Of a stretch of 64,000 nt of DNA, positions 5,167-39,080 are shown one piece after another (position 1 is the first letter of the stretch; each line of letters opens with the position of its first letter). The position numbers were made by a program, and so were the translations under genes. The notes beneath the pieces are model-generated. The model made no database searches. It was not told where the DNA came from and saw nothing but the letters and a program-made list of their open reading frames with translations. This DNA is from a phage. Where the stretch lies: sequence record PZ445511.1; one strand, written 5' to 3'.

Positions 5167-5934
5167 TTATTCAGCAGCCGCAGCTTTTGCATCCAGTTTA
5201 GCACGCTTAGCGGCACCATCATAGTCCTTAGCAACCAGACCACGACGAGACAGCATAGATTTAACACCGCGCTCAGACTTACCAGTTTTCTCAGCGATCT
5301 CAGCAACAGTCATGTTAGCCAGATCCAGACCTTCTAACAGATCTTCACGAGTTTTAGCACTTGAAGTTTCCTGTACCGGCATAGCAGCGATACGACCTTC
5401 ACGAAGCAGGCTCAGAGCTTTACCACGGATCTGCTTAATATTGCGACCGAAGTGAGCAGCGATAGCTTCAATAGTAGCACCAGCAACAACCTGATTAACG
5501 AAATCAGTTTCTTCGTCAGGAGTGAAGGAACGAACAGCAGCAGTTTTTTCAGTTGGCTTAACAGAAGCAGTCATTTCCAGACTCAGGATCTTACCCTGTA
5601 CCTGCTTAGCACCGAACTGACCACCAGCTACAGCAGCAGCGATTTCAGCGTAAGTATACTGACCAGCATGAGCGTTCAGGAAATCAACCAGTTCAGCTTC
5701 CTGTTCAGGAGTCCACGGGGATTTCTGTACTTCGTTAGCTTTCTGTACTTCGAAACCTTCTTTACGCAGCTTAGAGCCAACAGAGCGAGCGGTAACGTCT
5801 TTACCAGTCTCGGTAGCCAGTTCAGCAGCGATAGCAGCTACTTGTTCTTGAGAGATTACAGCAACACCCAGAGCAGTGGCTTTTGCTTTCAGAGACTCGG
5901 TTACACCTTCTACGTTCCAGTTCAGTTTAGACAT
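5167..5934 (-). CDS. Putative DNA-binding replication protein (possible T5 D5-like)
   Basis: 255 aa, Ala/Lys/Glu-rich with internal repeats; sits between ligase and helicase genes; identity inferred from position only. Confidence 0.4.
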   Translation of the reverse strand: MSKLNWNVEGVTESLKAKATALGVAVISQEQVAAIAAELATETGKDVTARSVGSKLRKEGFEVQKANEVQKSPWTPEQEAELVDFLNAHAGQYTYAEIAAAVAGGQFGAKQVQGKILSLEMTASVKPTEKTAAVRSFTPDEETDFVNQVVAGATIEAIAAHFGRNIKQIRGKALSLLREGRIAAMPVQETSSAKTREDLLEGLDLANMTVAEIAEKTGKSERGVKSMLSRRGLVAKDYDGAAKRAKLDAKAAAAE

Positions 5935-6709
5935 TATTATTTTTCTCCAATAGTTCTTTAATCGACAGGATTTCTATCCCATTCGTTTCGGCTTTCTTAT
6001 AAGATGAGGAAGAACGTTTTGATTCATCCTCACAGATTAGGTATTTGACGTCTTTGGTAACGGACTTCTTGACCGTATATCCTAGACTTTCTAAATAGTT
6101 TGTTGCATCCGTTCGATTTGCAAAATCTTGCAAAGATCCGGTAATACAGATCGTGATTCCATTTGGCTGGGCAACTAAATCATCTGTAATGATGATGTCA
6201 GCTTTAGCACCTCGGATACCAGTTGAGAATTTCCACGGTAATTCAATAACATCCTTGCCTTGTGGGGAATTTAGCCAGGTTTTGTAATTTTCTCCAGCCT
6301 TGCCGTCAGCCTTCACATCGTGGAAGCTAGTGCAATTTTGGGACAGTTTCTTTGCTGCAACCTCTCCAATAAGAGGAATTCCTAAAGAACCGAGAACTGA
6401 ACCAAAGTCAATGTCTCCGCGAACCTTAGTATTTAACTCGCTAATCAATTTAGCGGCAACCTTGCTACCCACAGCTCCGACCAAATCTTCTTCGGTCAGG
6501 TAAAACAGTTCTGAGATCTTAGTCAGCTCCAGCTTCTCAATAGTTTTCGGGCCAAAGCCCTTTAACTTCATTTTTGTGCAGAAGTTCTCGATTAACTTAC
6601 TTGATTGCGCTGGACAGTTGGACTTATTCCTACAGAATAATTGCCCGTTGACAAGATCTAGCTTAGAACCACAAGAGGGACATTGTGTTGGAATTTCGAT
6701 TTTCATCAA
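5927..6709 (-). CDS. ligB: NAD-dependent DNA ligase, C-terminal subunit (Zn finger, HhH, BRCT)
   Basis: 260 aa; zinc-finger CPSCGSKL...CRNKSNC at N-terminus, HhH-like and BRCT-like C-terminus; separate ORF from adenylation domain. Confidence 0.8.
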   Translation of the reverse strand: MMKIEIPTQCPSCGSKLDLVNGQLFCRNKSNCPAQSSKLIENFCTKMKLKGFGPKTIEKLELTKISELFYLTEEDLVGAVGSKVAAKLISELNTKVRGDIDFGSVLGSLGIPLIGEVAAKKLSQNCTSFHDVKADGKAGENYKTWLNSPQGKDVIELPWKFSTGIRGAKADIIITDDLVAQPNGITICITGSLQDFANRTDATNYLESLGYTVKKSVTKDVKYLICEDESKRSSSSYKKAETNGIEILSIKELLEKNNNV

Positions 6710-6736
6710 ATTTCTTCCTTATCAATTTATATAAAT

Positions 6737-6765
6737 ATTATAGCAAGTATTTAAGCATTTAGCAA
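6737..6765 (-). promoter_or_regulatory. Sigma70 promoter for ligB (minus strand)
   Basis: Reverse complement reads ttgcta-17bp-tataat followed by conserved atttatataaattga leader. Confidence 0.6.
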
Positions 6766-6908
6766 CTACAATTTTAACTAACTTTGCTTACCCTCGCCAT
6801 AACTTTCTATCCCTCAACTGAATGATAATAGTATATACCTAAGCGGCGAAAATGTCAATAACCACTTTATAATTCCGACATGGTAAATGGGTAGCAAAGG
6901 GTTACGAA

Positions 6909-7880
6909 TTAGTCGTATACTCGCTCTACTATACAAGGGATTACACCACCAGCACGAATCACTCGAATCTGGCAACCGATCTCTAAATCGAGAGCGTTAA
7001 TATAATCAACGTTATTAAGAGTTGCTTTAACGATTGTGGCATCATCAATAATCACCGGTTCGAAATAACCAACTGGAGTTACTTTACCAGAAGCCCCTAC
7101 TTGCCATTCAACTTTAACAAGTGTGGTAATTTCGCCTTCTTCATCCTCTTTAATAGCAAATGCACCACGAGGAAATTTATTAGTCCAACCTTCACGGAAG
7201 AATTTATTGTTGTCGTTAATGCGAACAACTTTACCATCTGTCGGAATCCATTTAAAGAAGGAACGAACATTAACAACTGTCAAGAAGTTCTCATTCTCTA
7301 GCCAAAGCATATCTTTTAAATAGGCTTCTGTAATACCGACTGTTTCCGCTGAACACTGGATACCATATGCAACGAAGATTAAACCACCTTCACCAATACG
7401 TTGGATGAAATCATCGCTGTCTTTCAGGTTAATAGCACCCGAAGCGTAGTTACGTTTGTTCTCTACTTCTTTAGTAATTAGAACTTCACCAGTGATTTGA
7501 GTTGGTACTTTTTGGGAAATAGTTTTGGGGATGTTCAGCATTTTAACATTATGCGTTACATCATTCCCTAGAATACCGTTACCACGAGTTAACGCTTGAA
7601 CAAACTCACCATTAATATATAATAGAGAAATCGCACAACCATCTAACTTATCAGTTTCAACCTGACCAAGTGGGTTGAATGGAGCTTTATCACCACGATC
7701 GTAATAGACTTTCTGCAAAGAATACATACGATACAAATGAGGGATATCACCTTTCGGTCCGATTTCTTCCTCTAGTGGGAATCTTTTAATCAGACGATCA
7801 TATTCTTCGTCAGAGATTAAAGACATACCTTGATAATATGCTTCTTGACAGCGTTTAATAAATTCTTTTACATTAGTCAT
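6909..7880 (-). CDS. ligA: NAD-dependent DNA ligase, adenylation-domain subunit
   Basis: 323 aa; KxDG adenylation motif (ETDKLDGCAISL); N-terminal Ia-like region. Confidence 0.85.
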   Translation of the reverse strand: MTNVKEFIKRCQEAYYQGMSLISDEEYDRLIKRFPLEEEIGPKGDIPHLYRMYSLQKVYYDRGDKAPFNPLGQVETDKLDGCAISLLYINGEFVQALTRGNGILGNDVTHNVKMLNIPKTISQKVPTQITGEVLITKEVENKRNYASGAINLKDSDDFIQRIGEGGLIFVAYGIQCSAETVGITEAYLKDMLWLENENFLTVVNVRSFFKWIPTDGKVVRINDNNKFFREGWTNKFPRGAFAIKEDEEGEITTLVKVEWQVGASGKVTPVGYFEPVIIDDATIVKATLNNVDYINALDLEIGCQIRVIRAGGVIPCIVERVYD

Positions 7881-10108: not shown

Positions 10109-10139
10109 ATTTAAACTCCTCTCTCAAATTTATGAATCT

Positions 10140-10168
10140 ATTATACAGAAAATTTTTCCTGAAAGCAA
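10140..10168 (-). promoter_or_regulatory. Sigma70 promoter (minus strand)
   Basis: Reverse complement ttgctt-17bp-tataat plus agattcataaatttgagag leader. Confidence 0.55.
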
Positions 10169-15296: not shown

Positions 15297-15479
15297 TTAA
15301 AAATCTTCTTCACCATATTCTCCCTCCTTAATAAGGAACTCTTTCCATTCTGCTGTATCCTCATAGATAACGCAGAAATCATCACTCTTCCATGAGAAGT
15401 CATCAGTAGCAAATTCAAAACGGTAGCACCAACTACCGTCTGGCCATACTAAAAGATCACACATGCTTTTCTGGGACAT
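15297..15479 (-). CDS. Hypothetical small protein
   Basis: 60-aa ORF from internal Met (MSQKS...), overlaps end of Sir2-like gene. Confidence 0.3.
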   Translation of the reverse strand: MSQKSMCDLLVWPDGSWCYRFEFATDDFSWKSDDFCVIYEDTAEWKEFLIKEGEYGEEDF

Positions 15480-16308
15480 AAATATTTCCCTCCATAAAAG
15501 CTTCAACTTGATCAATAAAGTGTTTATTACCAAAAACTTCGGCAGCTCCAGCACGCCATACAGTAACACCACGTTTCTCATATTCAAGCTGTTCATCATA
15601 GCGAACTTGAGGGTTAACAACCATCATCTTAGTTCCACGACATACAGCAGGGAATAGTTCCCAGTTGAAGTCAATCACTTGGTTGCTACAACCTACTACA
15701 ATAACCATATCATTGCTAGTAAGTGTATCAAACAGGTTAATCTGACCCATATACCACGGAGCCGTCTCACCAAAGAATGTTACGTTTGGTTTTACCCATT
15801 CGTAATCTTCAGGAACAATTGCAGTGTATCCAACATCTTCGATGATTTGATTGCGACCCCGACGATAGATCACCTCTTTCAAGTACCCGTGAGCGTGAAT
15901 GATTTCATCACGAGGGATACCAGCACGTTCCAGAAGGTCATCAACGTTAGTAGTGAAGTTCTTCACGCTATCCGCACCATAACGCTGGAACCATTCTGCA
16001 ATTCGCAGATGGGCAATGTTAGGCTCAACAGTCTGTAATTCCTGACGACGCATGTTGTAGAACTCATGAGTCTTGAGATACAGATCGTTACCCTCTTCAT
16101 CAATGCCAGGGAAACGAGCACTGAAGTAGTTAGGATCATCTTCACCACAGAAGCGACGGAAGCCAGCTTCAAAGTTAGGCAAGCTACATACTTCCTCTAG
16201 ATCGTACTCATCCCACAAAGATTTTCCACTAGCAGTATCAGTACGGAAAGCACGAACACCACTATCAACACTTAAACCAGCACCACTAACAATGATTAGT
16301 CTACGCAT
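15457..16308 (-). CDS. Sir2-family (sirtuin-like) NAD-dependent protein
   Basis: 283 aa; N-terminal GAGLSxxSGxxxFR sirtuin NAD-binding motif and HG catalytic motif; no CxxC zinc module. Confidence 0.6.
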   Translation of the reverse strand: MRRLIIVSGAGLSVDSGVRAFRTDTASGKSLWDEYDLEEVCSLPNFEAGFRRFCGEDDPNYFSARFPGIDEEGNDLYLKTHEFYNMRRQELQTVEPNIAHLRIAEWFQRYGADSVKNFTTNVDDLLERAGIPRDEIIHAHGYLKEVIYRRGRNQIIEDVGYTAIVPEDYEWVKPNVTFFGETAPWYMGQINLFDTLTSNDMVIVVGCSNQVIDFNWELFPAVCRGTKMMVVNPQVRYDEQLEYEKRGVTVWRAGAAEVFGNKHFIDQVEAFMEGNIYVPEKHV

Positions 16309-33557: not shown

Positions 33558-34067
33558 ATGAATCTAGGAACTACTTGTATATTTGATCACAGAGAAATGT
33601 GTTGCCCACATATTCTGTATGTAGTTCACTTTGCAGAACGTCTTACTCTGGATGAAGCTCGTGAGAAAATGGGTGGAATTACTGGATATGATTTCCGTGA
33701 AGGTGAATACTTTAGCATTGCTCTTGATTACATTGACAATACCCGTCTCTATCATCTAGTGCAGCTAGGGGAAGAAACTGATGAAGTGAAAATGGCGAAA
33801 GATACTCTACGTCGTTATCGTCCTCAGATTCTAGAACGTACACTTCGTGGAGAACGTAGTGACCCATTGTTCTTGAAGTGCTATGACGCAGATGTTAATG
33901 AGTATCTAGGACAGCAACGGTTTTACACTGAAATCAAAGAGTTTGTTCGTGAAAAATACGACGCTCTACTAATTGATTCCAGAGCACGACGTGCAGCTAA
34001 AAATGCTGAGAAATCTGCTAAAGCAGCACTAGAAAGCCAAACCAAACTGAACGAAATCGTTAAGTGA
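33558..34067 (+). CDS. Hypothetical protein
   Basis: 169-aa ORF after aaggaa RBS. Confidence 0.55.
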   Translation: MNLGTTCIFDHREMCCPHILYVVHFAERLTLDEAREKMGGITGYDFREGEYFSIALDYIDNTRLYHLVQLGEETDEVKMAKDTLRRYRPQILERTLRGERSDPLFLKCYDADVNEYLGQQRFYTEIKEFVREKYDALLIDSRARRAAKNAEKSAKAALESQTKLNEIVK

Positions 34068-34075
34068 TCTAATTT

Positions 34076-34150
34076 CGGGGTGTAGTCTAAGGGATAGGCA
34101 GGAGTCTTCTAAATTCCTTTATGCAGGTTCGAATCCTGTCACCTCGGCCA
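34076..34150 (+). tRNA. tRNA-Arg (anticodon TCT)
   Basis: Acceptor cggggtg/cacctcg, anticodon loop cttctaa, T-arm gcaggTTCGAATcctgt, CCA encoded. Confidence 0.8.
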
Positions 34151-34176
34151 ATCTTATTACCTGTTAGGAAAATAAA

Positions 34177-34377
34177 ATGAAAACACGATATATAGTAAAA
34201 GTAGTAGGTGAACATTCGCAAGTAAATACCACGGATGTTACAGCACTAGCATTTGAGGTAGTCTCCGGTATAGTCATATTTCATAATGGGGATATCAAAG
34301 CTCCTGAATTTGCTGTGGATGCTGGCCTGTTTATTTCTGCAACTAAAGTAACTGTAGTAGCTAACTCTTCTAAATAA
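34177..34377 (+). CDS. Hypothetical protein
   Basis: 66-aa ORF just upstream of SPFH gene. Confidence 0.45.
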   Translation: MKTRYIVKVVGEHSQVNTTDVTALAFEVVSGIVIFHNGDIKAPEFAVDAGLFISATKVTVVANSSK

Positions 34378-34388
34378 TAAGGAAATAT

Positions 34389-35333
34389 ATGTTTACTAAA
34401 AACACTAAAGAACTGACTTCTGAGCAAAAAGTAATTCGTACTATTAAACGTTGGGGTGTTGGTGCTGCTATTAGTCTTGGTGCTCTTATTCTGGCTCTCA
34501 ATTCCTATACAGTTGTTCAGGATGGTACTGTTAAGACCCAAACCTTCCTGGGTAAAGTTAGCCCTAATCCTGTATTGCCAGGCTTCCATATTGTTAACCC
34601 ATTTGCTTCTTTTGATACTTTTAGTACGAAAGATATTTCCATGAAACTGGATAAACTTCAGGTTCCTAGCCAGGATAAGTTTAAGTCCACTGTTGACATT
34701 ACCGTTATGTTGCAGTTTGATGGTGCTAAAGCTCCTATGAACCGTGTTAACGCAGGTACTCAGGATCAAGCTCTGAACAAGTACGTTGAAGAGAAGATGC
34801 TGTCTACGATTCGTGAGTTTGGTAAGTCTGTACCAAAAGCACAAGATCTGTTCGACGCTAAGATTCAGGCTCAACTGCAAACCGCTATTCAGCAAGAAGT
34901 AGAAGAGTATGCGCGTCCTTATGGTTACACCGTTAAGCAAGTATTCCTTCAGGATATTACTCTGCCACCGGTAATCATGGAACAGGTACAGAACACCAAA
35001 GTTCGTGAAGAACAAGTTAACGCTGCAAAAGCTGAACTGGCTCGTGTTGAACAAGAAGCACAGCAGAAAGTTAAGCAAGCTGAGGCGGATCGTTCCGCTC
35101 GTGAAAACATGGCAGTAGCTAACGAACGTGACGCAGATGCTAAACTGTACGCAGCTAAGAAAGAAGCTGAAGCTAACGCCGCTCTGCAACGTACCATTAC
35201 TCCTGAAATGATTCGTTGGAAGCAGCTGGAAGTTGAAATGCTTCGTGCTGAAAAATACCAAGGTGGTGTACCACAGACTGTTGTCGGTACTGGCTACGAT
35301 GGTCAAATGATCATGGATATGCGTAACAAGTAA
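34389..35333 (+). CDS. SPFH/band-7 (stomatin/prohibitin-like) membrane protein
   Basis: 314 aa; N-terminal TM helix, SPFH core, long Ala/Gln/Glu coiled-coil C-terminus. Confidence 0.7.
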   Translation: MFTKNTKELTSEQKVIRTIKRWGVGAAISLGALILALNSYTVVQDGTVKTQTFLGKVSPNPVLPGFHIVNPFASFDTFSTKDISMKLDKLQVPSQDKFKSTVDITVMLQFDGAKAPMNRVNAGTQDQALNKYVEEKMLSTIREFGKSVPKAQDLFDAKIQAQLQTAIQQEVEEYARPYGYTVKQVFLQDITLPPVIMEQVQNTKVREEQVNAAKAELARVEQEAQQKVKQAEADRSARENMAVANERDADAKLYAAKKEAEANAALQRTITPEMIRWKQLEVEMLRAEKYQGGVPQTVVGTGYDGQMIMDMRNK

Positions 35334-35346
35334 TAGTTACACGTAA

Positions 35347-35383
35347 TCTTCGAACCAAGCCCGCGTTTCCTTCGAGAGCGCGG
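35347..35383 (+). terminator. Rho-independent terminator
   Basis: aagcccgcg...cgcgggctt hairpin then TTTCTATATTT. Confidence 0.6.
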
Positions 35384-35537
35384 GCTTTTCTATATTTAAG
35401 GCAAAAGAAAAAGCCCATAAGTTATTCAACTAAGGTCTTTAGTATTTAATTCTTTAGAATCATATACTATTATTGCAGCAACAACGTGCTAACCTTAAGT
35501 GCCCTGCGATTTTCCTCTAAAAAGTTAAAAAATTCGA

Positions 35538-35566
35538 TTGCTTGAATGCTAAATTCTCTGTATAAT
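35538..35566 (+). promoter_or_regulatory. Sigma70 promoter for nadR-pnuC
   Basis: ttgctt-17bp-tataat; leader identical to the one at 37402-37437. Confidence 0.6.
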
Positions 35567-35596
35567 ATATTTATAAATTTGAGAGAGGAATCAAAT

Positions 35597-36652
35597 ATGA
35601 TTAAGACTGGTCTAGTAATTGGTAAGTTCGCACCATTAACGCGTGGTCATATTAACCTAATAAACACAGCAGCAACTATGTGTGAACGAGTTATTGTTGT
35701 AGTTAGTCATGATAATCGTTGGCTGGATAAGCAGAACACACGTGATAAGGAAGTATTACAGTTAAAGAATCGACTTCGTTGGTTAGAACAAACTTACGCG
35801 GATATTGAGCACATTTCGGTAGAGTACATTATTGAAGATGATATTCCTGAATATCCGAATGGTTGGCCGGAATATGCTAGAATCCTTAATGAAAATTACG
35901 GACATTTGCCTGAGATCACCGTTTTCTCTAGCGAACTAGACTATGATGCAGAATATAAGAAATATCTGCCGAAGTTTGGTCATTATATTGTAGATTCTGA
36001 TCGGACTCGTGTTCCAATCTCAGCTACAATGATTCGTAATGATCTTATGAAGTATTGGGAGTTTCTTCCTAGCGTAGTTCGTAAAGATTACGTGCGTAAG
36101 GTTGTAATCATTGGGACTGAAAGCTCGGGAAAGACTACTTTAACAAAATACCTTGCGAAGCTATACAACACTTCGTGGGTAGAAGAATATGGTCGAACGT
36201 ATTGTGAAGTTGATCTAGTTGGTAACGAAAATCTGCTTACCAGCGAAGATTATAGTAAAATTGCGTTCAGACACAAAGAGCTAGAGTTTGAAGCAGAACG
36301 TACTGCAAATAAGATCATGTTTGTGGATACAAATGCTTTTATTACTGAGTTCTACCACAGACTTTATGAACATAGTAAGAATCCTGTGGTTACAGCAATT
36401 GCAAAAGAAGAACATTATGATTTAGTAATTGTTCTAGCGCCTACTGTCAAGTGGGTAGATGATGGTTTACGTATTAACTCCGATCGTTCAATTACTTCTG
36501 AACTATTCGAGCAGATGAAGAAAGAATTTCCAAATCAGTTCCCTGAAGGGCGTACTGTTTACATCGACTCTCCGGACTACAAAGTTCGTATGGACGAAGC
36601 AGTAAACGCAGTAGACTGGCTGATTCATCACTTTAACGTTGGAGAGTTTTAA
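35597..36652 (+). CDS. nadR: NadR-type bifunctional NMN adenylyltransferase / ribosylnicotinamide kinase
   Basis: N-terminal nucleotidyltransferase GKFAPLTRGH (HxGH-class), C-terminal P-loop GTESSGKTTL kinase; start set after gagagagg RBS. Confidence 0.75.
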   Translation: MIKTGLVIGKFAPLTRGHINLINTAATMCERVIVVVSHDNRWLDKQNTRDKEVLQLKNRLRWLEQTYADIEHISVEYIIEDDIPEYPNGWPEYARILNENYGHLPEITVFSSELDYDAEYKKYLPKFGHYIVDSDRTRVPISATMIRNDLMKYWEFLPSVVRKDYVRKVVIIGTESSGKTTLTKYLAKLYNTSWVEEYGRTYCEVDLVGNENLLTSEDYSKIAFRHKELEFEAERTANKIMFVDTNAFITEFYHRLYEHSKNPVVTAIAKEEHYDLVIVLAPTVKWVDDGLRINSDRSITSELFEQMKKEFPNQFPEGRTVYIDSPDYKVRMDEAVNAVDWLIHHFNVGEF

Positions 36653-36653
36653 T

Positions 36654-37331
36654 ATGACTAACTATCTCGTAAATGACTTTAAAAACTGGAAACCTCTGGA
36701 ATATCTGTGGCTGTTCATAGCGGTTGTCTTCATTAGTTTAGCAAACTATAATGGTACAGCTCTAGATTGGGCTACTGCAATAACCAATGTGGTTTGTGTT
36801 ATTCTGGTTGCAAAAGGACGTATTTCCAACTATATTTGGGGCTTAGTGGGTGTTCTTACATATGGTATTACAGCTTTAAACGCAGATCTTTATGGTAACG
36901 CTGCACTAAACCTGCTATACTACGTTCCTATGCAGTTTTATGGAATGTACTTATGGCATAAAAATAAGCCAAGTAATCTGCCAGATGTTCCAACTAAGGT
37001 TCTGACTAAAGCCCAAGCTCTGCTGACTCTAGGGATTCTAGCAGTAGCCACGTTAGGGTATGGTAGTTTCTTAGCTACTACGGCTGATCCATTTCCAATG
37101 TTGGATGCATTTACTGCTGTAGGTAGTGTGATCGCTATGTGGCTTATGGTTAAGCAATATGCCGAGCAGTGGCTGATCTGGATTGCTATTAACATTGGTA
37201 CTGTGTACATTTGGCTTGTAACTGCTCAATCTACAGGTGCATCTTATGCAATCCTAGCAATGTGGCTAGTATTCTTAGGTAACTCTATTATAGGAGCCTA
37301 TAAAGGATACTTTGTACGCGTTAACAAATAA
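36654..37331 (+). CDS. pnuC: PnuC-like nicotinamide riboside transporter
   Basis: Multi-helix membrane protein with conserved W/Y-rich PnuC-like blocks; coupled to nadR. Confidence 0.65.
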   Translation: MTNYLVNDFKNWKPLEYLWLFIAVVFISLANYNGTALDWATAITNVVCVILVAKGRISNYIWGLVGVLTYGITALNADLYGNAALNLLYYVPMQFYGMYLWHKNKPSNLPDVPTKVLTKAQALLTLGILAVATLGYGSFLATTADPFPMLDAFTAVGSVIAMWLMVKQYAEQWLIWIAINIGTVYIWLVTAQSTGASYAILAMWLVFLGNSIIGAYKGYFVRVNK

Positions 37332-37338
37332 AGTAGTT

Positions 37339-37364
37339 ATAGCCCTCGCTTAGAGGGCTATTAT
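37339..37364 (+). terminator. Hairpin terminator after pnuC
   Basis: atagccctc-gctta-gagggctat, weak U-tract. Confidence 0.45.
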
Positions 37365-37378
37365 ACAGAAATTTTCAC

Positions 37379-37407
37379 TTGCTTAATATAGAAAATTTCT
37401 GTATAAT
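37379..37407 (+). promoter_or_regulatory. Sigma70 promoter
   Basis: ttgctt-17bp-tataat; -10 plus leader plus RBS duplicated from nadR promoter. Confidence 0.6.
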
Positions 37408-37437
37408 ATATTTATAAATTTGAGAGAGGAATCAAAT

Positions 37438-37734
37438 ATGAAACGCATTGTACTTGCATTGACTCTAGTATCTACTTCTGTATTTGCTGCTCCACAACAG
37501 GAACTTTGTCAAGTTCAAGTTTGTAATAAGCTAGAACGATTTACTCTAGACATTTGGTCCCACATTAAAGATAATATGGGTGAACAGTGTTTTGATATTG
37601 TTCTGCCAAAAGAACAAGCTGTTCCTGGGGCTGTTCTCAGCTCAGAATCACGTTGGTGGCAAGGTTCTTCTATCAACCCAACTAAGAAGTCAGTGACACG
37701 TATCAAACAAGTATATCAGTGCAACGTTCAGTAA
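37438..37734 (+). CDS. Secreted Cys-containing protein
   Basis: Signal peptide MKRIVLALTLVSTSVFA then mature domain with 4 Cys. Confidence 0.55.
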   Translation: MKRIVLALTLVSTSVFAAPQQELCQVQVCNKLERFTLDIWSHIKDNMGEQCFDIVLPKEQAVPGAVLSSESRWWQGSSINPTKKSVTRIKQVYQCNVQ

Positions 37735-37742
37735 AATTTCAC

Positions 37743-37771
37743 TTGCTTAATGCCGAAATTTTCTGTATAAT
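37743..37771 (+). promoter_or_regulatory. Sigma70 promoter
   Basis: ttgctt-17bp-tataat. Confidence 0.55.
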
Positions 37772-37804
37772 ATATTCATAAATTTGGAAGATTAGGAACT
37801 ATTT

Positions 37805-38314
37805 ATGTTAGACTATGAGTCTATACTTTATAGATTCCGTTTAGAAGATGGTGTACTGGTGTGGAATCCGCTCTCCGGAAACTCCAGAGAGGAGAAGATA
37901 TTTAATACTAAGTTTGCCAATAAACCTGCGGGATCTTTGCACAAAAGCTCTGGGTATATCAGAGTTAACGTTGATCACCAAGATTACTTAGCTCATATCA
38001 TAGTATTTATACTATGATATGGGTATAGGCCGGAAATGGTTGATCATAAAGACTGCAATAAGTTAAATATACATCCTTTAAATTTAAGAGCAGCGGATAG
38101 TACCACTAATACTCATAATGCTAGTAAATCTTCTAGGAATACTAGCGGATTTAAGGGAGTATCCTACCACAAAGCATCTGGTCAGTGGCAGGGTAGAATA
38201 ATGTTTAAAGGTAAGTCATACTCCGCAGGGCTGCACAGTACTCCTGAAGCAGCAAATGAAGCTCTAATTCAACTGAGAGAGAAACTTCATGGGGAATATG
38301 CCCGAAATAATTAA
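37805..38314 (+). pseudogene. HNH homing endonuclease interrupted by in-frame TGA at 38015-38017
   Basis: Reading continues in the same frame across TGA: ...AHIIVFIL-stop-YGYRPEMVDHKDC..., matching the paralog sequence FIMYYGYRPEEVDHKD. Confidence 0.55.
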
Positions 38315-38403
38315 GGAAGAATAGCATAACGGTATTGCAGCAGATTGCTAATCTGTCGGTTTGAAACATAGCCTTGTGGGTTCGATTCCCACTTCTTCCG
38401 CCA
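38315..38403 (+). tRNA. tRNA-Ser (anticodon GCT), class II
   Basis: Acceptor ggaagaa/ttcttcc, anticodon loop ttgctaa, long variable arm, T-arm gtgggTTCGATTcccac, CCA. Confidence 0.75.
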
Positions 38404-38408
38404 AATTT

Positions 38409-38486
38409 GGTTCTCAAGCTCATTTGGTATGAGCCGTCGCCTCATAAGCGAAAGGTAGGTAGGTTCGAATCCTCCGGGAGCCACCA
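38409..38486 (+). tRNA. tRNA with CAT anticodon (Met or Ile2)
   Basis: Acceptor ggttctc/gggagcc (two G-U), D-arm gctc...gagc, anticodon loop ctcataa, T-loop TTCGAAT, CCA; A at position 8. Confidence 0.65.
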
Positions 38487-38635
38487 GATAACTAGGAGAC
38501 TTTATGTCACGCTTTCACGAAATTAAGCAAGAACTAGAAGAATGTATGTGTACTGAATGTTGGGGTTCTGGCACTTAATGTTCCAGTGACTGGATTCCCT
38601 GATTGGCTGCAAGGTTACGAACTCTAACAAAATTT

Positions 38636-38721
38636 GGATCTGTGGTGGAATTGGCAATACACACCATGCTTAAAACGTGGCGCTTAAATGATTGAGGGTT
38701 CGAGCCCCTCCAGATCCACCA
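38636..38721 (+). tRNA. tRNA-Leu (anticodon TAA), class II
   Basis: Acceptor ggatctg/cagatcc, anticodon loop cttaaaa, 13-nt variable arm, T-arm gagggTTCGAGCccctc, CCA. Confidence 0.75.
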
Positions 38722-38737
38722 AATTAAGGAAGTAAAA

Positions 38738-38860
38738 ATGAAATCTATTAAGAAAGCTATTCGTGAACTTATCCGTTGTCGCTTCCATAACATCAAGGCT
38801 TCAACTAATGGTACTACTTACGATCGCTATGATCCTAAGTTTGGCTTACATTCTAAATAA
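38738..38860 (+). CDS. Hypothetical small protein
   Basis: 40-aa ORF with aaggaag RBS. Confidence 0.35.
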   Translation: MKSIKKAIRELIRCRFHNIKASTNGTTYDRYDPKFGLHSK

Positions 38861-38873
38861 CTGGAGAAAACAA

Positions 38874-39080
38874 ATGGCTAATCCTGAAATTACGGCACAA
38901 CGTTTTATGCTGAAAGGAATTATTGCTGAAGCAGGCGTGACACAAGAAGTGGAAGATTTCCATAAGCAGTTCCTAAATATTCTCACTCAAGCCAAAGAGC
39001 TAGGAGAGAAAGAACATGGCGCGGCTATTATGGCAATCACATTGGTTGGGCTTGATCTGGCAGAAGAATCAGGAGTTTAA
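38874..39080 (+). CDS. Hypothetical protein
   Basis: 68 aa from ATG after ggagaaa RBS. Confidence 0.45.
   Translation: MANPEITAQRFMLKGIIAEAGVTQEVEDFHKQFLNILTQAKELGEKEHGAAIMAITLVGLDLAEESGV

What the first reader, a model, noticed from the sequence alone, without database searches (positions are those of the whole stretch)
35538..37331. Phage-encoded NAD+ salvage pair (NadR + PnuC) alongside other NAD+-dependent genes
A NadR-type NMN adenylyltransferase / ribosylnicotinamide kinase and a PnuC-like transporter form one promoter-driven operon. The same window carries an NAD-dependent DNA ligase (5927-7880) and a Sir2-like protein (15457-16308). Together this suggests the phage manages its own NAD+ supply, which would matter if the host depletes NAD+ during infection or if ligase demand is high.
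Basis: partly seen in the sequence, partly recalled or inferred. Interest (0 to 1): 0.75.

Follow-up and report, generated by a model that had tools for sequence, protein, structure and literature searches.

The report
Phage NadR–PnuC NAD salvage operon
A T5-like Salmonella phage carries a two-gene early operon predicted to import nicotinamide riboside and turn it into NAD+; the genes are real and intact, but the module is already annotated in hundreds of phages and already proposed in print as a phage NAD+ supply route, so it is an ordinary, known feature whose physiological role is still untested.

Summary
The window is the early region of a T5-like Epseptimavirus, about 100% identical to Salmonella phages RA40, vB_SenS-3 and bux. 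A T5-type sigma-70 promoter (35538-35566), the ortholog of T5's annotated P15a, drives nadR (35597-36652) and pnuC (36654-37331). The two genes are 1 nt apart and are closed by a hairpin.

NadR has intact NMN-adenylyltransferase and ribosylnicotinamide-kinase motifs but no DNA-binding domain. It is 99.4% identical to a solved structure (PDB 9x6f). PnuC passes the Pfam and NCBIfam thresholds and matches 4QTN. Both genes are under strong purifying selection (dN/dS 0.02-0.05).

The split NAD-dependent ligase and a CobB-like Sir2 are also present.

The pair is accessory. About half of close T5-likes carry it, and T5 itself does not. NadR and PnuC co-occur across roughly 750-790 phage records.

The idea is not new. 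Iyer et al. 2022 list phage NadR. Osterman et al. 2024 name the NadR-PnuC operon of T5-like BASEL phages as a possible, untested NAD+ reconstitution route. I found no experimental follow-up.

In passing: a conserved secreted 98-aa protein (phrog_6894) sits beside NadR in three unrelated phage clades.

Verdict: already known, low interest.

The parts
35357..35387 (+). Terminator hairpin of the upstream SPFH/Band-7 gene (34389-35333). It isolates the nadR-pnuC unit from upstream transcription.
   Evidence: The terminator scan gives a 12-bp stem followed by a T-run. The fold is -20.7 kcal/mol, z -4.25. The hairpin is conserved in empty-slot relatives.
35538..35566 (+). T5-type sigma-70 early promoter: -35 TTGCTT at 35538-35543, 17-nt spacer, -10 TATAAT at 35561-35566, with an upstream A-tract. 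It is the ortholog of T5 promoter P15a.
   Evidence: Sequence. It is one of 21 matches to the promoter pattern against 0 expected. It is near-identical to the T5 feature annotated 'promoter P15a' and to the slot promoter of phage Gostya9.
35581..35589 (+). Ribosome-binding site GAGAGAGGA of nadR. It lies within a 43-nt promoter/5'UTR block (35557-35599) that is repeated exactly at 37398-37440.
35597..36652 (+). nadR-type bifunctional enzyme, 351 aa. The N-terminal NMN adenylyltransferase domain carries T15-R-G-H18 and I141-SATMIR147. The C-terminal ribosylnicotinamide kinase domain carries Walker A G173-TESSGKT180, FVDTN 242-246 and the lid WVDDGLR 286-292. There is no HTH DNA-binding domain.
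   Evidence: Pfam AAA_28 1.2e-31 and CTP_transf_like 2.3e-7. NCBIfam PRK08099 259.6 bits against a cutoff of 201, aligned from profile position 54. PDB 9x6f matches at 1e-240 with 349/351 identical residues, and 1LW7 at 2e-55. phrog_3462 matches at 1.5e-153. Motif positions are. dN/dS is 0.02-0.03.
36654..37331 (+). pnuC-type nicotinamide riboside transporter, 225 aa, a multi-pass membrane protein. Its start codon is 1 nt after the nadR stop, behind GGAGAG at 36641-36646.
   Evidence: PF04973 2.5e-43. TIGR01528 120.2 bits against a cutoff of 42.45. PDB 4QTN matches at 9.6e-33 over residues 9-215. phrog_1880 matches at 4e-74. The hydropathy scan flags six non-overlapping hydrophobic stretches. 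dN/dS is 0.04-0.05.
37339..37361 (+). Hairpin closing the operon. It has a 9-bp GC-rich stem and only a weak U-tract.
   Evidence: Fold of -18 kcal/mol, z -5.67, with 0 of 200 shuffles as stable. The simple terminator scan did not call it, because the T-run is poor.
37379..37407 (+). Second T5-type promoter. Its -10/UTR part is an exact 43-nt repeat of the nadR promoter/UTR. It drives the next gene and is not part of the operon.
37438..37734 (+). Secreted 98-aa protein of unknown function (phrog_6894), with a signal peptide and 4 invariant Cys. Its membership in the module is uncertain. It accompanies nadR-pnuC in every Epseptimavirus examined and lies next to NadR in two other phage clades.
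6909..7880 (-). NAD-dependent DNA ligase subunit A (adenylation and OB domains). It consumes NAD+ and releases NMN. This is context, not part of the operon.
   Evidence: PF01653 1.8e-23 and PF03120 9e-22. PDB 9hu3 'DNA ligase (NAD(+))' matches at 2e-106. The bux annotation agrees.
5927..6709 (-). NAD-dependent DNA ligase subunit B (HhH and BRCT domains). Context.
   Evidence: PF00533 7.7e-9 and HHH_2. The bux annotation agrees.
15457..16308 (-). CobB-like sirtuin (Sir2 family), another NAD+ consumer. It carries the motifs GAGLSVDSG, TNVD and HAHG. Context.
   Evidence: PF02146 2e-21. PDB 1S5P (CobB) matches at 5e-16. Homologs occur in 979 phage records.

Best explanation
This is an accessory, early-expressed nicotinamide-riboside (NR) salvage module of a T5-like phage.

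The strong host-RNA-polymerase promoter, the ortholog of T5 P15a, transcribes nadR and pnuC as one message. The 1-nt gap between them suggests coupled translation. PnuC inserts into the inner membrane and lets NR diffuse in. The kinase domain of NadR phosphorylates NR to NMN, which traps it in the cell. The adenylyltransferase domain then joins NMN and ATP to give NAD+. The same domain can re-adenylylate the NMN that the phage's own NAD-dependent ligase releases.

The phage protein lacks the HTH domain of enteric NadR, so it is an enzyme only, not a repressor. T5-like phages destroy host DNA early, so the host cannot derepress its own NadR-controlled pnuC. The phage copy therefore supplies salvage capacity during infection. 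This would help when NAD+ is limiting or is being destroyed.

Shown here: the gene identities, intact catalytic motifs, operon anatomy, purifying selection, accessory distribution and conserved NadR-PnuC pairing.

Inferred: the enzyme activities, the transport substrate, the timing, and any benefit to the phage.
For: - **Identity.** A 99.4%-identical protein has a solved structure deposited as 'Nicotinamide-nucleotide adenylyltransferase' (9x6f/9x6h).
- **Motifs.** TRGH, ISATMIR, the Walker A motif and the WVDDGLR lid are all conserved against H. influenzae NadR.
- **No HTH domain.** The NCBIfam alignment starts at profile position 54 of 411, and the ORF cannot extend upstream without overlapping the -10 box.
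- **Operon anatomy.**
- **Selection.** dN/dS is 0.022-0.033 for nadR and 0.041-0.046 for pnuC at dS 0.29-0.55.
- **Conserved pairing.** NadR is in 792 phage records and PnuC in 748, with matching genus counts: Salmonella 174/174, Klebsiella 47/47, Bacillus 24/24, Lactobacillus 18/18, Prevotella 15/15. The two genes are adjacent in the order NadR then PnuC in Vibrio phages S4-7 and D253 and in jumbo phages; in PVP-SE1 they share a strand but lie about 1.7 kb apart with five genes between.
- **Not a recent host capture.** Identity to Salmonella NadR is only 34% (H50). GC is 0.38-0.40, against 0.40 for the window.
- **NAD+ consumers in the same genome.**
- **Metabolic trapping.** Trapping by NadR kinase is the accepted PnuC mechanism. 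This rests on established knowledge of Salmonella and Haemophilus PnuC/NadR, not on a test here.
Against: - No activity, transport or infection data exist for this module in any paper I could find.
- T5 and about half of close relatives lack the cassette yet keep the ligase and Sir2, so it is dispensable.
- One relative, vB_EcoS_Ace, carries a nonsense codon at nadR codon 74.
- NadR scores 270 bits against TIGR01526, below that model's cutoff of 341.
- The route needs NR or NMN. It cannot rebuild NAD+ from nicotinamide plus ADP-ribose.
- The near-identical complete genome bux has no Nampt/NadV, Adps or Namat annotated.
Confidence: 0.75

Rival explanations
1. The module is a dedicated counter-defence. 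It exists mainly to outrun NAD+-depleting immune systems (Thoeris, DSR1/2, SIR2-HerA, SEFIR and others) by making new NAD+ from imported NR. That would make it a third route beside NARP1 and NARP2. This overlaps with the best explanation and differs only in what is being selected for.
For: - Osterman et al. 2024 explicitly raise this for the NadR-PnuC operon of T5-like BASEL phages, but did not test it.
- The patchy, accessory distribution and the own-promoter cassette in a variable slot are typical of anti-defence genes.
- Phage NadR is listed among NAD+-synthesis counter-measures by Iyer et al. 2022.
Against: - The products of these defences, nicotinamide and ADP-ribose, are not substrates of this route, so rescue would depend on external NR supply and on flux.
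- I found no experimental evidence.
- No model in the PADLOC or anti-defence libraries was consulted for it.
Confidence: 0.4
2. The main job is a closed recycling loop for the phage's NAD-dependent DNA ligase. Ligase turns NAD+ into AMP and NMN. NadR re-adenylylates the NMN in one step instead of going through the host's longer deamidation route. PnuC would be secondary.
For: A split NAD-dependent ligase lies in the same early region. Its subunit A starts with a YY...ISDEEYDRL block that resembles the NAD+-binding Ia motif of bacterial LigA; this is read from the sequence, and the comparison is from memory. The NMNAT motifs are intact.
Against: - T5 and about half of the close relatives have the same ligase without NadR.
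- The kinase domain and PnuC are as strongly conserved as the NMNAT domain, and always travel with it. That argues NR import matters.
Confidence: 0.2
3. The proteins have drifted to another substrate. The transporter might carry a different nucleoside or vitamin, since the Pnu family also includes thiamine and riboflavin carriers. The enzyme might make or destroy another nucleotide, for example an immune signal.
For: NadR falls below the TIGR01526 equivalog cutoff. The phage clade is only 34-37% identical to cellular or other-phage NadR. Substrate specificity cannot be read from these scores.
Against: - PnuC scores well above the NR-specific equivalog cutoff: 120 bits against 42.
- All NadR catalytic motifs match the NR/NMN enzyme.
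- The depositors of the 99.4%-identical structure named it an NMN adenylyltransferase.
Confidence: 0.07
4. The cassette is a neutral passenger with no effect on phage fitness.
For: It is dispensable in many relatives. One nonsense allele is known.
Against: - dN/dS of 0.02-0.05 at dS up to 0.55 shows sustained purifying selection on both genes.
- The pairing is conserved across phage groups infecting Proteobacteria, Firmicutes and Bacteroidetes.
Confidence: 0.03

Closest known systems
PDB 9x6f / 9x6h, 'Nicotinamide-nucleotide adenylyltransferase' (357-aa chain)
   Same: 349 of 351 residues are identical across the full length. It is effectively the same protein from a sister phage.
   Different: There are two conservative substitutions (K51Q, V109I) plus a 6-residue tag. 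I found no associated paper in the library, so I do not know what the depositors showed.
Haemophilus influenzae NadR (PDB 1LW7), a bifunctional NMN adenylyltransferase / ribosylnicotinamide kinase
   Same: Same two-domain architecture, aligned end to end (E 2e-55). The (H/T)xGH, ISxTxxR, Walker A and WVDDGLR motifs are conserved.
   Different: The sequences are distant. The phage uses TRGH where Haemophilus has HTGH. The phage gene is in a virus under a T5 early promoter.
Enteric (Salmonella / E. coli) trifunctional NadR, NCBIfam PRK08099
   Same: The enzyme core is homologous, scoring 259.6 bits, above the cutoff of 201.
   Different: The N-terminal HTH repressor domain is missing, because the alignment starts at profile position 54. 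Identity to Salmonella NadR is only about 34% (H50). It therefore cannot act as the NAD-sensing repressor.
Neisseria mucosa PnuC (PDB 4QTN), TIGR01528 / PF04973
   Same: Full-length match (E 1e-32), including the conserved block EQWxxWIxxNIxTxxxW. It scores above the family thresholds.
   Different: It is shorter (225 aa against 244). Its substrate has not been tested.
NARP2 (Vibrio phage KVP40 Nampt/NadV + Nmnat/NatV) and NARP1 (Adps + Namat), the proven phage NAD+ reconstitution pathways (Osterman et al. 2024)
   Same: It is a phage-encoded small operon that ends in NAD+ synthesis. The NMNAT chemistry is shared with NARP2.
   Different: It starts from imported NR rather than from nicotinamide plus PRPP or ADPR. 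It includes a membrane transporter. No Nampt, Adps or Namat gene is annotated in the near-identical genome. Anti-defence activity is hypothesised but not tested.

Membership tests
NadR enzyme family (NMNAT + RNK; NCBIfam PRK08099 / TIGR01526; phrog_3462) | Whole-protein profile score above the curated cutoff | tested here: met
   PRK08099 scores 259.6 bits against a cutoff of 201. TIGR01526 scores 270.4 bits against 341.15, so that stricter model is not met. phrog_3462 matches at 1.5e-153.
NadR enzyme family (NMNAT + RNK; NCBIfam PRK08099 / TIGR01526; phrog_3462) | Nucleotidyltransferase signature motifs (H/T)xGH and ISxTxxR in the N-terminal domain | tested here: met
   T15-R-G-H18 and I141-S-A-T-M-I-R147 align to HTGH and VSATKIR of 1LW7.
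NadR enzyme family (NMNAT + RNK; NCBIfam PRK08099 / TIGR01526; phrog_3462) | P-loop kinase domain with Walker A and a lid motif | tested here: met
   G173-TESSGKT180, FVDTN 242-246 and WVDDGLR 286-292. Pfam AAA_28 matches at 1.2e-31.
NadR enzyme family (NMNAT + RNK; NCBIfam PRK08099 / TIGR01526; phrog_3462) | Measured NR kinase and NMN adenylyltransferase activity | not testable with these tools
   This needs enzymology. The only hint is the depositor's molecule name for 9x6f.
Trifunctional enteric NadR (regulator) | N-terminal helix-turn-helix DNA-binding domain | tested here: not met
   The alignment to PRK08099 begins at profile position 54 of 411. Upstream of ATG 35597 lie the RBS and the -10 box. 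The protein is therefore not filed as a transcriptional regulator, despite that label in several GenBank records.
PnuC nicotinamide riboside transporter (PF04973, TIGR01528) | Profile score above the curated cutoff across the full domain | tested here: met
   PF04973 scores 148.5 bits against 27.3. TIGR01528 scores 120.2 bits against 42.45. 4QTN matches at 1e-32.
PnuC nicotinamide riboside transporter (PF04973, TIGR01528) | Multi-pass membrane topology (7-8 helices in 4QTN) | tested here: inconclusive
   The simple hydropathy scan flags six non-overlapping hydrophobic stretches. Residues 60-110 align to helices of 4QTN but fall below my threshold. No dedicated topology predictor was available.
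PnuC nicotinamide riboside transporter (PF04973, TIGR01528) | Genomic linkage to an NR kinase (NadR) for metabolic trapping | tested here: met
   The gap to nadR in the window is 1 nt. The NadR-then-PnuC order recurs in unrelated phages.
PnuC nicotinamide riboside transporter (PF04973, TIGR01528) | NR as the transported substrate | not testable with these tools
   This needs an uptake assay or complementation.
Phage NAD+ reconstitution pathways NARP1 / NARP2 (Osterman et al. 2024) | NARP1 requires Adps + Namat; NARP2 requires Nampt (NadV) + Nmnat | tested here: not met
   Only an NMNAT-type domain is present. No Nampt, Adps or Namat is annotated anywhere in the near-identical complete genome bux. 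This check rests on annotation, not on a profile scan of every ORF.
Phage NAD+ reconstitution pathways NARP1 / NARP2 (Osterman et al. 2024) | Demonstrated rescue from NAD+-depleting defence | not testable with these tools
   The source paper states it was 'not examined' for NadR-PnuC. I found no later test.

The most novel reading that the evidence does not exclude
The NadR-PnuC cassette may be a third, import-dependent phage route for replenishing NAD+. It would differ in principle from NARP1 and NARP2 because it draws on extracellular nicotinamide riboside, so its counter-defence value would depend on the environment. In several phage clades it may also work with a third partner: the conserved secreted 98-aa, four-cysteine protein (phrog_6894; 37438-37734) that sits beside NadR in T5-like, Seunavirus and jumbo phages. 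That protein might act in the periplasm on precursor supply.
Probability: 0.15. Interest if true: 0.6.

Novelty: already known. Interest (0 to 1): 0.25.

Why it matters
NAD+ depletion is a major bacterial anti-phage strategy, and two phage pathways that rebuild NAD+ have been proven. If the NadR-PnuC pair also protects phages, the share of phages with an NAD+ counter-measure rises. NadR homologs occur in about 1.6% of the phage records searched. It would also add a route whose efficacy depends on nutrients in the surroundings, which is relevant to gut phages and to phage therapy with T5-like Salmonella and E. coli phages. That question has already been posed in the literature, and natural with/without phage pairs exist for testing it. 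This window adds a clean example, not a new idea.

Tried and rejected
- **Riboswitch or other RNA element.** I looked for an NAD+ riboswitch or similar ahead of nadR or pnuC. Rfam at E<=1 over 34000-39000 gave only tRNAs and sub-threshold noise. The 5'UTR is about 30 nt, too short for one.
- **Longer NadR start.** The ORF from 35546 (368 aa) is rejected. The extra 17 codons overlap the -10 box and the RBS, and the same 'REESNM' peptide appears before the next gene only because the UTR is duplicated.
- **Alternative pnuC start.** The TTG start at 36639 is rejected in favour of ATG 36654, which has a GGAGAG ribosome-binding site and agrees with the annotations.
- **Recent capture from the host.** Rejected: identity to Salmonella NadR is 34%, and GC equals that of the genome.
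- **Experimental follow-up.** Searches for 'NARP3', the PDB code 9X6F, NadR + PnuC + phage, and BASEL phage names found nothing relevant. The KVP40 salvage paper is not held in the library.
- **The small secreted protein.** There is no Pfam hit and the PHROG is of unknown function. The AlphaFold model has mean pLDDT 77. Foldseek against the PDB gave no match with E<=0.001. A link to the SPFH gene was tested by tblastn and not found. Three metagenomic contigs showed no NadR nearby.
- **Not run.** I did not run a large protein-database search for NadR or PnuC themselves, because the phage-collection searches and the PDB hit already settled their identity.
Full report
**What the window is.** Megablast of 35400-37400 finds 394 phage records. 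The best are 100% identical: Salmonella phages vB_SenS-3, RA40 and bux, genus Epseptimavirus, family Demerecviridae, that is T5-like. The annotation of bux shows that the window covers the T5-type early region. That region holds the replication genes, the split NAD-dependent ligase, a Sir2-like gene, nrd genes, a large tRNA cluster and the lysis genes.

**Checking the observation.** The unit starts with a promoter: TTGCTT (35538-35543), 17 nt, TATAAT (35561-35566), preceded by an A-tract. The pattern TTGCT-N18-TATAAT-N6-ATAAATT occurs 21 times in the window against 0 in shuffles, and always in the direction of the local genes. The nadR copy is almost identical over about 95 nt to the feature annotated 'promoter P15a' in phage T5.

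The mechanical ORF list starts NadR at 35546. That extension runs through the -10 box. The real start is ATG 35597, behind GAGAGAGGA, and this agrees with the annotations. nadR ends at TAA 36650-36652. pnuC starts at ATG 36654, behind GGAGAG, and ends at 37331. No T5-type promoter or terminator separates the two genes. Stable hairpins lie at 35357-35387 and 37339-37361.

**What the proteins are.** NadR (351 aa) matches the following:
- Pfam AAA_28 (1.2e-31) and CTP_transf_like (2.3e-7).
- NCBIfam PRK08099, above its cutoff. It falls below the stricter TIGR01526 cutoff.
- phrog_3462, 'nicotinamide-nucleotide adenylyltransferase'.

Against solved structures it aligns end to end with H. influenzae NadR (1LW7, 2e-55). 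It is 349/351 identical to PDB 9x6f/9x6h, deposited as 'Nicotinamide-nucleotide adenylyltransferase'. The catalytic signatures of both domains are present: TRGH 15-18, ISATMIR 141-147, Walker A 173-180 and the lid WVDDGLR 286-292. The alignment to the enteric trifunctional NadR model begins at profile position 54, so the HTH repressor domain is absent. GenBank labels such as 'NadR transcriptional regulator' are therefore misleading.

PnuC (225 aa) passes PF04973 and the NR-transporter equivalog TIGR01528, and matches 4QTN.

Both genes are under strong purifying selection. Against phages JNwz02 and 3-29, dN/dS is 0.022-0.033 for nadR and 0.041-0.046 for pnuC, at dS 0.29-0.55.

**The other NAD+ genes.** The 'ligase 5927-7880' is two minus-strand ORFs. 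Subunit A (6909-7880) has the adenylation and OB domains, and matches PDB 9hu3 'DNA ligase (NAD(+))' at 2e-106. Subunit B (5927-6709) has the HhH and BRCT domains. A T5-type promoter sits in the gap between them. The Sir2-like ORF (15457-16308, minus strand) is a CobB-type sirtuin with the GAGxS, TNVD and HAHG motifs.

**Distribution.** NadR homologs occur in 792 of 50,697 phage records and PnuC homologs in 748. The genus breakdowns are nearly identical. The order NadR then PnuC recurs in Vibrio phages, Seunavirus phages and jumbo phages.

Within close T5-likes the cassette is accessory. The neighbouring SPFH gene is at least 90% identical in 420 records, but NadR in only 203. T5 itself has a convergent cassette, T5.077-079, in this slot. 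Gostya9 and the BASEL phage HildyBeyeler have an empty slot, in which the same promoter drives a T5.076-like gene. Sir2 and the ligase are present whether or not the cassette is. The host's own NadR is only 34% identical. The cassette GC equals the genome GC.

**Mechanism.** The best-supported reading has four steps:
1. The two genes are co-transcribed early from the P15a-type promoter.
2. PnuC admits nicotinamide riboside.
3. The NadR kinase domain traps it as NMN.
4. The adenylyltransferase domain makes NAD+.

NMN released by the phage ligase can enter at step 4. Identity, motifs, anatomy, selection and linkage are shown here. Activities, substrate, timing and benefit are inferred from the characterised Haemophilus and Salmonella NadR/PnuC systems.

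I infer, but did not test, the reason a phage would need its own copy. T5-like phages degrade host DNA early, so the NadR-repressed host pnuC cannot be induced during infection.

The rivals differ mainly in what is selected for: counter-defence, ligase recycling, a changed substrate, or nothing at all. Purifying selection and the conserved pairing argue against 'nothing'. The equal conservation of the kinase domain and PnuC argues against pure ligase recycling. The counter-defence reading remains open. It has one clear weakness: nicotinamide and ADP-ribose, the products of NAD+-depleting defences, are not substrates of this route.

**Comparison with what is known.** Iyer et al. 2022 list NadR among phage NAD+-synthesis domains (PMC9503650). 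Osterman et al. 2024 state that phage NadR genes usually share an operon with PnuC. They suggest this operon is 'yet another pathway', show the BASEL phages that carry it in their Supplementary Figure 3, and say it was not examined. More than 200 GenBank records already annotate the pair, and a near-identical protein has a deposited structure. I found no experimental test. The finding is therefore correct but already known.

**Noticed on the way.**
- The 43 nt from TCTG-TATAAT through the ATG are identical at 35557-35599 and 37398-37440. They flank the cassette as direct repeats.
- The gene behind the second copy (37438-37734) encodes a secreted 98-aa protein with four invariant cysteines (phrog_6894, unknown function). 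It is 50-67% identical across unrelated phages, whereas NadR is about 35% identical between the same groups.
- That small gene lies beside NadR on the same strand in T5-like, Seunavirus and jumbo phages, in two different gene orders. This was so in 12 of the 28 loci examined, but not in the Aeromonas T4-likes, phage 7-11, or three metagenomic contigs.
- An AlphaFold model of it (pLDDT 77) has no PDB fold match. Whether it belongs to the module is unresolved.

Noticed in passing
window 37438-37734 (+); loci L010, L011, L016, L019, L021, L023, L025-L028: A secreted 98-aa protein (signal peptide, 4 invariant Cys, motif SESRWYQGSSINPTKKSVTR; phrog_6894, unknown function) follows pnuC in this window. 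It lies directly beside NadR on the same strand in Seunavirus phages (PVP-SE1, 4MG) and jumbo phages (Eneladus/Mimas/CBB-like), in a different gene order. It is 50-67% identical across these groups, whereas NadR is only about 35%. The link is not universal: 12 of the 28 loci examined have NadR within 5-6 kb. The AlphaFold model (pLDDT 77) has no PDB fold match.
   Followed up: partly
window 35557-35599 and 37398-37440: An exact 43-nt direct repeat (end of the promoter spacer, the -10 box, the 5'UTR, the RBS and the ATG) flanks the nadR-pnuC cassette. The slot between the SPFH-gene terminator and tRNA-Ser has three states among T5-likes: this cassette plus the small secreted protein; empty (Gostya9, HildyBeyeler); or the convergent T5.077-079 cassette (T5). 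The conserved promoter/UTR may serve as the recombination joint for cassette exchange.
   Followed up: partly
locus L009 (Escherichia coli phage vB_EcoS_Ace, MT833283.1) 444-1499: In this relative, nadR has a premature stop at codon 74 and is annotated as two CDS, while pnuC is intact. This is either a natural knockout or a sequencing error.
   Followed up: partly
window 5927-7880 (-): The NAD-dependent DNA ligase is split into subunit A (6909-7880) and subunit B (5927-6709). The 199-bp gap between them carries its own T5-type promoter (6724-6765). A homolog of subunit A has a solved structure (PDB 9hu3/9i5i, E 2e-106).
   Followed up: partly
window, 21 sites listed (e.g. 10127-10168 on the minus strand): There are 21 copies of a T5-type promoter consensus (TTGCT-N18-TATAAT-N6-ATAAATT) against 0 expected by chance. 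Their orientation switches from minus to plus near 19 kb, in step with gene direction and with the GC-skew minimum. The copy at 10127-10168 looks (from memory) almost identical to the classic T5 PN25 promoter used in expression vectors.
   Followed up: no
window 37805-38017 and 38036-38314 (+): Two short adjacent ORFs (70 and 92 aa) lie between the small secreted protein and tRNA-Ser (38315-38400). One related record (BD13) has a 'putative HNH homing endonuclease' annotated within its match to this region. They may be a split or decayed homing endonuclease abutting the tRNA gene.
   Followed up: no
window 15457-16308 (-): The phage sirtuin is CobB-like, with intact NAD-binding and catalytic-His motifs. 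It has homologs in 979 phage records, including T5-likes without NadR-PnuC and Vequintavirinae. Its substrate and role in infection are unknown.
   Followed up: partly
loci L011 (103-1032) and L016 (784-1710): In the jumbo phages pEa_SNUABM_50 and XbC2, a putative ADP-ribosylglycohydrolase gene lies about 3.5-4 kb upstream of the small-protein/NadR/PnuC cluster on the same strand. This hints at a larger NAD/ADP-ribose neighbourhood in those genomes.
   Followed up: no
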